Shown piece by piece: positions 55,590 through 57,152 of a DNA stretch of 64,000 nt (positions are counted from its first letter, which is position 1; each line of letters begins with the position of its first letter). The translations under genes were made by a program, and so were the position numbers. Source of the stretch: Rotaria socialis (taxonomy: Eukaryota); NCBI GenBank assembly GCA_905331295.1, contig CAJNYD010000013.1:206763-270762 (forward strand). Direction: 5' to 3'. The notes under the pieces are model-generated. The model was not told where the DNA came from. It saw nothing but the letters and a program-made list of their open reading frames with translations, and did not search any database.

Positions 55590-57152
55590 CTATGAATCCA
55601 CAACAATATTCTTGGTCAATTGATGATATAATGTTTGTTCCGATTCGTCCTTCTCTTTACCGATCCTATTTGCCTCTATCAAATAATCATAATCGCTAAT
55701 TTTGTCTTTTTTAGCTTCCAATTGTTCCATCTGGTCCATGAAAACTTGCGTATGTTCGGCAATAAAATCCGCGTAACGATTAGATAAATAATTCAACCAA
55801 TATTCTTTGTCCAATACAAAGTCAATCAAAAAGTTTTTACCTCGTTCAATTTTTTCCCTTTGAATTTGCGCAACAGCTTTTGCTACATCATCATGGTTAG
55901 CTGGAGCCATATCGGGATAAAGCATAAAGCATATTTTTTCAGTGCCCAATGGCATTTCCAAAGTATTTGCTGGAGATATGTAGAAAAACAAGGCCGTTTC
56001 AAGTGCACTAATCTCTTCATCTTCTGCAGCCGTTCCATTCTCGTACGGATGACTTTGTGAGTGTGATAAAGAAAATTCTTGTAGACGATAGAAATTAAAG
56101 ATCCTCTCAACTTCCCGAAGAACTGCTTCATCAGATAATTCCGATGCGATCATCCTTTCCTCAGTATTCTTTATTTCCATTTCGTATAAAGCGAATAGAA
56201 TGCCATCATGACACGTTGCAATGCCATCATGACACGTTGCAATGACATTCTGCGCTTTCTTATAACACTCTATACGTAGATTTGGATATTTTACCATTGC
56301 ATCCAACAATAAACCGATACGTTTTTTAAATGCTTCACGATATTTTTCAGCTTCCGGTAGCCTTAGCATTTCTTCGTAACGTGCCAGCCATATCTCAAAA
56401 TAGTCCGATCCACCTTCATTCTGAAACCTTTCTTCCCATGGTGCTCTGAATTCTATGGAAAAATCGCCAAACGACGCTAGTGGAATTTGGTCTTTCAACG
56501 CGAGATTTTTGATATTGTGAATATTTTCAGGAAATTTTAGAATACGATTATGACTCAACATCACCGTCTTGATATTTGGTAAGTGCACTAATTCTTTTGA
56601 TACCTTTCGAAGCTGATTACATTCTGCATTGAAAAATTCTAGCTTTTGAAACTCTTTGAAACTATCAGGCACCTCGGTCAAAACGTTACTGGAAAAATTT
56701 AATAATTTTAAGCCAGTCAAATTAAACAACGTCTGTGGTATTTCTGAAAATCTGTTGTTGGCTAGAGACAAATATCGTAAATGGTCCATTCTTCCAAAGC
56801 TATCAGGAAGTGTGCTAAGAGAAAGAAAGGATAAGTCCAGAGTATTGGAACGCTGCTTGAAACAATCTTTGATTCTTTTCTTTGCTTCCACATCTTGTAC
56901 GTCATCTGCAGGATCTTGCCAGGCTTCTAAAGATTGTTTTAATTCTGGCATTGTCATAGGTTTCGGAGGCGATGGTCTTAAATATTGAGCTGACGCGAAA
57001 CGCATACTACTGGCTCCTACTTGGCTGCGACGTTGCGGTACTGCAGACGGACTTTGAAGTCGTATACTATTGGAGGTACGTTGCAGTGCATTGGTTTGGT
57101 TTCGGCGTTGAGTTGCTGCCAAAGAAGTACCACGAATTGCAAGAGAATCCAT
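55590..57152 (-). CDS. Intronless LRR + NEL (novel E3 ligase) protein of IpaH/SspH/SlrP type, HGT candidate
   Basis: N-cap LEAWQ...EAKKRIKDCF...TLDLSFLSLSTLPD; about five LRRs (LSLANNRFSEIP, LNFSSNVLTEVP, LSHNRILKFP); NEL pattern FEIWLAR...FKKRIGLLLDAM...LRIEC...ATCHDG..FALYEME...FYRLQE...DEEISALET...L.MP...MLY...YWLNYLSNRYADF. Confidence 0.85.
   Translation of the reverse strand: MDSLAIRGTSLAATQRRNQTNALQRTSNSIRLQSPSAVPQRRSQVGASSMRFASAQYLRPSPPKPMTMPELKQSLEAWQDPADDVQDVEAKKRIKDCFKQRSNTLDLSFLSLSTLPDSFGRMDHLRYLSLANNRFSEIPQTLFNLTGLKLLNFSSNVLTEVPDSFKEFQKLEFFNAECNQLRKVSKELVHLPNIKTVMLSHNRILKFPENIHNIKNLALKDQIPLASFGDFSIEFRAPWEERFQNEGGSDYFEIWLARYEEMLRLPEAEKYREAFKKRIGLLLDAMVKYPNLRIECYKKAQNVIATCHDGIATCHDGILFALYEMEIKNTEERMIASELSDEAVLREVERIFNFYRLQEFSLSHSQSHPYENGTAAEDEEISALETALFFYISPANTLEMPLGTEKICFMLYPDMAPANHDDVAKAVAQIQREKIERGKNFLIDFVLDKEYWLNYLSNRYADFIAEHTQVFMDQMEQLEAKKDKISDYDYLIEANRIGKEKDESEQTLYHQLTKNIVVDS
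56199..56244. repeat. Exact 21-bp tandem duplication in the NEL active-site region
   Basis: aatgccatcatgacacgttgc x2 + aatg, encoding IATCHDG-IATCHDG on the minus strand. Confidence 0.97.

What the first reader, a model, noticed from the sequence alone, without database searches (positions are those of the whole stretch)
56199..56244. Catalytic Cys motif of the NEL ligase is exactly duplicated in frame (IATCHDG x2)
Seen: a perfect 21-bp tandem duplication covers the predicted catalytic CxD, giving two Cys-His-Asp motifs 7 residues apart with the frame preserved. Perfect identity implies a very recent event. Inference: this could be an inactivated or attenuated allele, an enzyme with two potential thioester cysteines, a microhomology (aatg)-mediated repair scar, or an assembly artefact.
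Basis: partly seen in the sequence, partly recalled or inferred. Interest (0 to 1): 0.8.

Follow-up and report, generated by a model that had tools for sequence, protein, structure and literature searches.

The report
Duplicated active-site motif in rotifer NEL ligase
A bdelloid rotifer gene for a bacterial-type (NEL) ubiquitin ligase carries a real 21-base in-frame duplication of its active-site Cys-x-Asp motif; some strains have it and others lack it, it likely arose by replication slippage, and it is predicted to lengthen the catalytic loop rather than destroy the protein.

Summary
Window 56199-56244 is a perfect 21-bp tandem duplication (chance expectation about 1e-7 per window). It lies in an intact 520-aa minus-strand ORF (55590-57152) and gives IATCHDG twice.

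The window is bdelloid rotifer DNA; the best protein hits are Rotaria socialis. The protein is LRR + NEL (Pfam PF14496). The duplicated Cys-His-Asp aligns with the catalytic C-E-D of SspH1 and SspH2. The same column reads CxD in 104 of 105 distant NEL rows that cover it.

It is not an assembly artefact:
- Independently built contigs from four DNA runs carry both copies.
- One DNA run and one RNA run carry a single copy.
- Public R. socialis proteins exist as 520-aa forms (two sequences) and 513-aa forms (three full-length, two partial).
- None of 17 homologues outside the window has the duplication.

It is therefore a segregating allele that arose within R. socialis, flanked by CATT microhomology. 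In a strain with the single-copy allele, the mRNA carries the rotifer spliced leader.

The functional effect is untested. AlphaFold keeps the fold but replaces the 4-residue Cys loop with lower-confidence helix. I read it as a tolerated or mildly attenuating allele, with the second copy the likelier nucleophile. A sister clade of Rotaria paralogues has Ser in place of the Cys.

The parts
55590..57152 (-). Intronless CDS of the LRR-NEL protein (520 aa plus stop; P0001)
   Evidence: ORF list and translation. Pfam finds NEL and LRR families. RNA-run X9 contigs lie collinear with the genome over the parts they cover.
56490..56852 (-). LRR domain, about residues 101-221, with 23-residue repeats of SHOC2/Leptospira LIC type
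   Evidence: Pfam LRR_8, LRR_14 and LRR_4. PDB sequence hits to SHOC2, E 2.8e-42.
55770..56441 (-). NEL (novel E3 ligase) domain, residues 238-461 by Pfam
   Evidence: PF14496 E 6.9e-14, 52.2 bits against a cut-off of 24. The top Foldseek PDB hits are IpaH3, SspH1, SspH2, SlrP and IpaH9.8.
56199..56244 (.). Perfect 21-bp tandem duplication: two units plus the 4-base microhomology
56223..56243 (-). Copy 1 in reading frame: I304-A-T-C307-H-D-G310. It keeps the native junction to the preceding helix.
   Evidence: HMMER treats this copy as the insertion relative to the family profile.
56202..56222 (-). Copy 2 in reading frame: I311-A-T-C314-H-D316-G317. It keeps the native junction to the following conserved helix ILFALYEME.
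   Evidence: D316 is nearly invariant in the 51-sequence alignment.
56271..56273 (-). Codon 294 (ATA Ile here; ACA Thr in other alleles), next to the nearly invariant R293. Ile accompanies the duplication in both 520-aa proteins.
57153..57166 (-). 14-nt 5' UTR. In run X9 the rotifer spliced leader is joined directly upstream of 57166.
   Evidence: Loose end at 57166. Its reverse complement matches 22 of the 23 letters of the Rotifera SL consensus in PMC3795323 Table 1.
55438..55589 (-). 3' UTR. AATAAA lies at 55465-55460, and the X9 RNA contig ends at 55438, 22 nt downstream.

Best explanation
This is a real 21-bp in-frame tandem duplication that segregates within Rotaria socialis and doubles the Cys-x-Asp active-site motif of an expressed, bacterial-type LRR-NEL ubiquitin-ligase gene; it likely arose by slippage between two CATT microhomologies 17 nt apart, and the protein is predicted to keep its fold with a 7-residue-longer catalytic segment.

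Shown:
- The duplication exists in reads-derived contigs of several samples and is absent from others.
- It covers the family's invariant CxD motif.
- The ORF stays intact.
- The gene is a rotifer gene: mRNA of a single-copy allele carries the spliced leader.

Inferred:
- Origin by replication slippage or microhomology-mediated repair.
- The allele is tolerated or only mildly attenuating.
- The second copy (C314-H-D316) would be the working nucleophile, because it keeps the native link to the conserved downstream helix. The first copy would be extra loop or helix carrying a spare cysteine.
For: The duplication is real and polymorphic:
- Single contigs from DNA runs X1, X3 and X6 span 55400-57400 with 0 gaps.
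- The X4 contig spans 55900-56700 with 0 gaps.
- The X8 (DNA) and X9 contigs have exactly 21 bases left out at 56199.
- The 1021-bp X10 contig has the duplication with 0 differences.
- The 90% protein cluster holds two different 520-aa sequences with the duplication (P0001, P0019) and five without it (P0002, P0022, P0023 full length; P0020, P0021 partial).
- 0 of 17 other Rotaria homologues have the duplication.
- Only 2 of 147 HMM-aligned rows have any insertion at this point.

The duplicated motif is the catalytic one:
- The only two PDB sequence hits of the NEL-only profile are SspH1 and SspH2. They align family S/C-H-D to C-E-D.
- Among distant NEL rows the column is CxD in 104, CxN in 1, and 15 rows do not cover it.
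- The NEL review states that the Cys of the CXD motif is the catalytic nucleophile (PMC9320238, passages seen).

Microhomology:
- The sequence reads GT-CATT-(17 nt)-CATT-CTA on the gene strand.

The protein is probably tolerated:
- The ORF is intact in both duplication-bearing sequences.
- In four samples the duplication form is the only contig form laid.
- Both AlphaFold models keep the LRR+NEL fold: mean pLDDT 84.2 against 85.9, with the same top PDB hits.
- In the single-copy model the motif is a 4-residue inter-helix loop (residues 304-307, with Cys last). This is the kind of site where insertions are usually accommodated (general knowledge).

Expression:
- An X9 contig joins the rotifer spliced leader to position 57166.
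- X9 coverage stops at 57166 and 55438, while DNA runs continue past both.
Against: - No activity data exist for any rotifer NEL protein.
- AlphaFold does not keep the native loop in the duplicated form. It predicts helix 290-309, a one-residue break, then helix 311-335, so both cysteines sit in helix. Local pLDDT falls to 75-78, against 86-94 in the single-copy model. This could equally mean a disturbed active site.
- Both 520-aa proteins also carry T294I next to the nearly invariant R293. That could be a second hit in a decaying allele.
- Expression of the duplicated allele rests on run X10, whose RNA label is only a guess.
- The SL-bearing transcript (X9) is the single-copy allele.
- Contigs drop minor variants, so apparent homozygosity is not shown.
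- The runs that hold the duplication may include the window's own source sample. They are independent of the assembler, not necessarily of the sample.
Confidence: 0.6

Rival explanations
1. Loss-of-function or strongly attenuated allele. The 7-residue insertion misplaces the catalytic Cys, and the allele drifts, or is masked by other copies or paralogues in a degenerate-tetraploid asexual genome.
For: - AlphaFold loses the Cys loop and local confidence drops.
- T294I next to the invariant R293 accompanies the duplication in both 520-aa proteins.
- The CxD spacing is invariant in 104 of 105 covering distant rows, and no other row has an insertion there.
- R. socialis has further NEL paralogues, P0012 and P0018.
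Against: - There are no stop codons or frameshifts in either duplication-bearing sequence.
- The duplication form is the only contig form in four samples.
- It is present in a run guessed to be RNA (X10).
- AlphaFold is a poor judge of insertion effects (general knowledge).
Confidence: 0.3
2. Assembly or sequencing artefact: the genome really has one copy.
For: Short perfect tandem duplications can arise from mis-assembly. The runs that hold it may include the window's own source.
Against: - With 31-letter words, a 46-base array of period 21 contains no repeated word, so contigs cannot gain a copy by looping (my reasoning).
- Four DNA runs from four samples in two studies give contigs with two copies, while X8 and X9 give one copy.
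- Two different duplication-bearing protein sequences are deposited.
Confidence: 0.02
3. An unstable two-copy minisatellite that repeatedly gains and loses a copy by slippage, so the enzyme toggles between 513-aa and 520-aa forms on different haplotypes.
For: All four combinations of duplication and codon 294 are seen:
- duplication + Ile (window, X1, X3, X6);
- duplication + Thr (X4);
- single copy + Thr (X9, P0002, P0022, P0023);
- single copy + Ile (X8).

The two sites lie only about 30-70 bp apart. D250G also occurs both with the duplication (X6) and without it (X8, P0002).
Against: - Logan contigs can be mosaics of two haplotypes, because bubbles are popped and the sites lie more than 31 bases apart.
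- Gene conversion between homologous copies, well known in bdelloids (recalled), would give the same pattern.
- The number of samples is small.
Confidence: 0.2
4. Gain of function: two working thioester cysteines seven residues apart (relay or alternative acceptor), changing chain type or substrate chemistry.
For: Both copies are complete CxD motifs with identical local sequence. The allele persists in several samples.
Against: No NEL among the 147 aligned rows has two motifs apart from this allele. Only one copy can keep each native flank. Nothing tested here supports it.
Confidence: 0.05

Closest known systems
Bacterial NEL E3 ubiquitin ligases (IpaH family, SspH1, SspH2, SlrP)
   Same: - N-terminal LRR plus C-terminal NEL domain.
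- The CxD motif sits at the aligned position.
- The NEL core residues are conserved: R278, R293, D316, E326, E385 and others are nearly invariant across 51 sequences.
   Different: - It is encoded in an animal genome and, in a single-copy strain, expressed as a spliced-leader trans-spliced mRNA. It is not a type III secreted effector.
- The LRRs are the 23-residue SHOC2/LIC type by best hits, rather than the short IpaH/YopM type (recalled).
- The motif is C-H-D, and in this allele it is present twice.
- Pfam NEL scores are far weaker (52 bits) than for the bacterial-type hits (129-205 bits).
Other bdelloid rotifer NEL-domain proteins (Rotaria spp., Adineta vaga UJR19215.1), named only by automatic annotation
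   Same: The Rotaria proteins are 54-65% identical over the NEL part and have the same architecture and length. Adineta vaga also has an LRR+NEL protein (P0029).
   Different: - None has the duplication.
- 10 of the 20 close homologues outside this gene's own 90% cluster have Ser instead of the Cys.
- One has Trp, one has CxE, and the Adineta one has CxN.
HECT, RBR and RCR ligases (thioester-forming E3s; MYCBP2 uses two cysteines in relay - recalled, not checked here)
   Same: A cysteine-thioester mechanism is inferred for NEL (PMC9320238). The RCR class is a precedent for two cysteines in one ligase.
   Different: The folds are unrelated. Nothing here shows that the second cysteine is used.

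Membership tests
NEL domain family (Pfam PF14496) | Sequence match to the family profile above the curated cut-off | tested here: met
   52.2 bits against a cut-off of 24, E 6.9e-14, residues 238-461
NEL domain family (Pfam PF14496) | Conserved catalytic Cys within a CxD motif at the family position | tested here: met
   The profile alignment to SspH1 and SspH2 puts the family S/C-H-D on C-E-D (weak E-values of 0.052 and 0.32, but these are the only two PDB hits). The column is CxD in 104 of 105 covering distant rows. In this allele the motif occurs twice.
NEL domain family (Pfam PF14496) | All-helical NEL fold following an LRR domain | tested here: met
   AlphaFold models have pLDDT 84-86. 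The Foldseek top 5-7 PDB hits are IpaH3 (3cvr), SspH1 (9h6w), SspH2 (3g06), SlrP (4puf), IpaH9.8 (6lol) and IpaH1880 (5kh1), with E 5e-10 to 2e-06. Global TM is only 0.26-0.41 because the domain orientation differs. No domain-only superposition was obtained.
NEL domain family (Pfam PF14496) | E2-dependent ubiquitin thioester formation and ligase activity | not testable with these tools
   This needs biochemistry.
Type III secreted bacterial NEL effectors (IpaH/SspH/SlrP) | Encoded by a bacterium and delivered by a secretion system | tested here: not met
   - The closest proteins are all from Rotaria, on contigs up to 562 kb.
- The window has few long ORFs, and its neighbours are eukaryote-type genes (Josephin, NHL, BPL_N).
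- An mRNA contig carries the rotifer spliced leader.

The most novel reading that the evidence does not exclude
A natural animal allele of a bacterial-type NEL ligase in which both duplicated CxD cysteines are used (a relay or alternative thioester site). The copy number would toggle by slippage, giving a built-in switch of ligase output. It sits beside a sister clade that replaced the Cys with Ser, so rotifer NEL proteins would be exploring new nucleophile chemistry.
Probability: 0.05. Interest if true: 0.8.

Novelty: new variant of a known kind. Interest (0 to 1): 0.4.

Why it matters
NEL ligases are described as bacterial effector enzymes. This gene is one member of an NEL family kept in bdelloid rotifers, and it is expressed in at least one strain.

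The species offers a natural pair of alleles differing essentially by a 7-residue duplication of the catalytic motif. This is a ready-made experiment on how much the NEL catalytic loop tolerates and on which flank positions the nucleophile.

The pattern of the duplication across haplotypes could also report on slippage versus gene conversion in an asexual animal.

By itself, the duplication is a small polymorphism of unknown effect.

Tried and rejected
- No whole genome is held for this window, so paralogues and the homologous copy could not be searched in the genome.
- phmmer of the NEL part alone against PDB found nothing relevant: two chance hits, E 0.44 and 1.6. The full-length query and profile were swamped by LRR hits. 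The NEL-only 4-sequence profile (A3) was needed.
I therefore have no domain-level Z-scores and no residue-level structural superposition of the Cys.
- No listed run is on record as RNA. The RNA labels of X9 and X10 are guesses. X9 is supported as RNA by its spliced leader and by its coverage limits. X10 is not.
- X9 left 56413-56520 uncovered even at the laxer setting. This hole is not used as evidence.
- One X9 contig 'skipping 201' bases (56400 to 56602) has 10 mismatches and belongs to a paralogue, not to an intron.
- Short 61-base and 211-base contigs with 4-9 mismatches at 55947-56007 and 56602-56641 are paralogue fragments.
- Literature searches found no description of NEL genes in rotifers: 'NEL domain' + rotifer (one unrelated paper, checked), Rotaria socialis + HGT + ubiquitin ligase (0 papers), bdelloid + IpaH (0 papers), and a broader search (nothing relevant in the 8 listed). 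Subscription journals and supplements were not searched.
- Earlier findings of this scan: nothing by place or by sequence.

Full report
**1. The observation**

The + strand at 56199-56244 is AATGCCATCATGACACGTTGC twice, followed by AATG. TRF gives period 21, 2.4 copies, score 93. This is the top array of only three with score >=60 in the whole window.

A script found 25 consecutive period-21 matches. The expected number of such runs at any period from 1 to 100, given the window's base composition, is about 1e-7. No other perfect two-copy repeat with period >=13 exists in the window, apart from a 100-N scaffold gap.

On the minus strand the repeat lies in frame in a 520-aa ORF, 55590-57152. It reads N-V-[I-A-T-C-H-D-G]-[I-A-T-C-H-D-G]-I-L-F, with Cys307 and Cys314. 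On the gene strand the unit is bounded by CATT on both sides: GT-CATT-17 nt-CATT-CTA.

**2. What the gene is**

- Pfam finds LRR families over about residues 101-221 and NEL (PF14496) over residues 238-461, at 52.2 bits against a cut-off of 24.
- No genome is held for the window.
- The closest proteins are all from bdelloid rotifers of the genus Rotaria. The best is a 513-aa R. socialis 'NEL domain-containing protein', 97% identical over the queried region (residues 225-520).
- A more distant LRR+NEL protein comes from the Adineta vaga chromosome-scale assembly.
- The window looks eukaryotic. It has only 11 ORFs of >=150 aa in 64 kb. Its neighbours include fragments of Josephin, NHL-repeat and biotin-protein-ligase genes.

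Evidence that it is a transcribed rotifer gene:
- A contig of run X9 fits the gene up to 57166, 14 nt upstream of the ATG, and then continues with 22 letters.
- Reverse-complemented, these letters equal positions 2-23 of the 23-nt Rotifera spliced-leader consensus in Table 1 of PMC3795323 (passage seen).
- PMC1925144 (passages seen) states that bdelloids trans-splice a 23-nt leader onto more than half of their transcripts.
- X9 coverage ends at 57166 and at 55438, which is 22 nt after an AATAAA at 55465-55460. DNA runs continue past both points.

The gene is therefore a transcribed, trans-spliced, intronless rotifer gene of bacterial type. The foreign origin is an inference from the family's otherwise bacterial distribution (PMC9320238, passages seen). 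I did not run a formal transfer test.

**3. Is the duplicated Cys the catalytic one?**

- A profile of four NEL-only sequences (A3) hits only two PDB sequences, SspH1 (9h6w, E 0.052) and SspH2 (3g06, E 0.32).
- Both alignments place the family's S/C-H-D on the C-E-D of these ligases.
- The same profile found 123 proteins in the 1.84-billion representative library.
- In an HMM alignment of all stored proteins, the 120 rows of P0028-P0144 split as 104 CxD, 1 CxN (the Adineta protein) and 15 that do not cover the site.
- The NEL review states that the Cys of the CXD motif is the catalytic nucleophile and that the Asp is needed for transfer to lysine.
- AlphaFold models of both alleles hit full-length IpaH3, SspH1, SspH2, SlrP and IpaH9.8 first in Foldseek.

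The motif assignment holds.

**4. Real or artefact; how widespread**

Of 15 listed runs I could lay 7.

| Run | Type | Result at the repeat |
|---|---|---|
| X1, X3, X6 | DNA | One contig each across 55400-57400 with 0 gaps, so two copies |
| X4 | DNA | Two copies, plus 56272 A>G |
| X8 | DNA | 21 bases left out at 56199, plus 56404 T>C |
| X9 | RNA (SL-bearing) | 164-base contig with the same 21 bases left out, plus 56272 A>G |
| X10 | Labelled another organism; RNA only by guess | 1021-base contig with two copies and no difference |

With 31-letter words, a 46-base array of period 21 has no repeated word. A contig therefore cannot acquire a copy by graph looping (my reasoning).

The 90% protein cluster holds two different 520-aa sequences with the duplication (P0001, which is the window's protein, and P0019). 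It also holds three full-length 513-aa sequences and two partial ones without it. None of the 17 more distant Rotaria homologues has it.

Caveats:
- The duplication-bearing DNA runs are flagged as possible sources of the window. They test the assembler, not the sample.
- Contigs drop minor variants, so zygosity is unknown.

**5. History**

Thr294 is the state in all single-copy proteins, and position 294 is T, K, I, A or Q in other homologues. The SNPs seen translate as follows:
- 56272 A>G is I294T.
- 56404 T>C is D250G.
- 56908 G>T is A82E.
- 56938 T>G is K72T.
- 56169 C>T is silent.

All four combinations of duplication and residue 294 occur: duplication+Ile (window), duplication+Thr (X4), single+Thr (X9, P0002 and others) and single+Ile (X8). 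G250 occurs both with the duplication (X6) and without it (X8).

Possible explanations are that a copy is lost or gained more than once by slippage, that gene conversion shuffles short tracts, or that the Logan contigs are haplotype mosaics (the sites lie more than 31 bases apart). I cannot separate these.

The duplication is in any case younger than the split from the other Rotaria lineages. It is also older than a private mutation.

**6. Likely effect**

- In the single-copy model (P0002), helix 290-303 is followed by a 4-residue loop, I-A-T-C (304-307), and then helix 308-328. The 10-residue-block pLDDT there is 86 and 94.
- In the duplicated model (P0001), AlphaFold draws helix 290-309, a single break at G310, and helix 311-335. 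The pLDDT is 75 and 78.
- The rest of the protein is unchanged: mean pLDDT 84.2 against 85.9.

This predicts that the fold survives and that the local geometry is uncertain. Such predictions are weak for insertions.

Copy 2 keeps the native junction to the conserved helix (HDG-ILFALYEME, with the nearly invariant D316 and E326). Copy 1 keeps the junction to the preceding helix. I therefore favour C314 as the nucleophile, with a longer and perhaps less efficient loop.

My odds:
- About 0.55-0.6: functional or mildly attenuated.
- About 0.3: null or strongly attenuated.
- About 0.05: both cysteines used.

**7. Context that lowers the stakes**

Among the 20 close homologues outside this gene's own 90% cluster, 10 have Ser for the Cys, one has Trp and one has CxE.

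In a maximum-likelihood tree, 8 Ser rows plus one Cys row (P0015, CYD) form one clade with 100/99 support. That clade is sister, at 90/94 support, to the R. socialis Cys gene. The tree used 23 rows; rows with fewer than 250 aligned residues were dropped.

The surrounding T-x-H-D-G-I-L-F stays conserved. A Ser form of the NEL domain has therefore been kept for a long time in Rotaria. Either thioester chemistry is not essential to what these proteins do in rotifers, or Ser serves as the nucleophile.

**8. Comparison and novelty**

The protein passes the sequence, motif and fold tests for the NEL domain family. It fails the test for being a bacterial secreted effector.

I found no paper describing NEL genes in rotifers. 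Databases name them only automatically.

A duplicated CxD motif appears in no other aligned row. I rate it a new variant of a known kind, of moderate interest. It is a neat natural allele pair for enzymology and for studying slippage or gene conversion in an asexual animal, but it has no demonstrated phenotype.

Noticed in passing
homologues P0003, P0004, P0006, P0008-P0012, P0017, P0018 (no window coordinates): 10 of the 20 close Rotaria NEL homologues outside this gene's 90% cluster have Ser in place of the catalytic Cys (S-H-D), with conserved flanks. In the tree, 8 of them plus one Cys row form a well-supported clade sister to this gene. P0027 has Trp, P0024 has C-Y-E, and Adineta vaga P0029 has C-H-N.
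   Followed up: partly
window 57166-57170 (minus strand): The spliced-leader junction seen in run X9 lies directly after CAT in the window's sequence, not after an AG acceptor. Either X9's strain differs at this base, or this allele is trans-spliced elsewhere (an AAAAG lies at 57159-57155).
   Followed up: no
window 39153-39252: A run of 100 N: a scaffold gap in the assembly.
   Followed up: yes
window 21300-22847 (-), 31340-32125 (-), 32432-33301 (-): ORF pieces with Josephin, biotin-protein-ligase N-terminal and NHL-repeat domains. These are eukaryote-type neighbours.
   Followed up: partly
window 52295-53308 (+): A 337-aa uninterrupted ORF convergent with the NEL gene, with no Pfam family at E <= 0.001. 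It could be another lineage-specific or acquired gene.
   Followed up: no
window 55947-56007 and 56602-56641: Every DNA run laid on these stretches also gives short contigs with 4-9 mismatches here. They continue into unlike sequence on both sides, and so are conserved islands shared with NEL paralogues in the same genomes.
   Followed up: partly
window 56490-56852 (-): The LRR part resembles eukaryotic SHOC2 and Leptospira LIC-type 23-residue repeats (E 2.8e-42 to SHOC2), not the short IpaH/YopM-type repeats (the latter is recalled). The origin of the LRR module may differ from that of classical NEL effectors.
   Followed up: no
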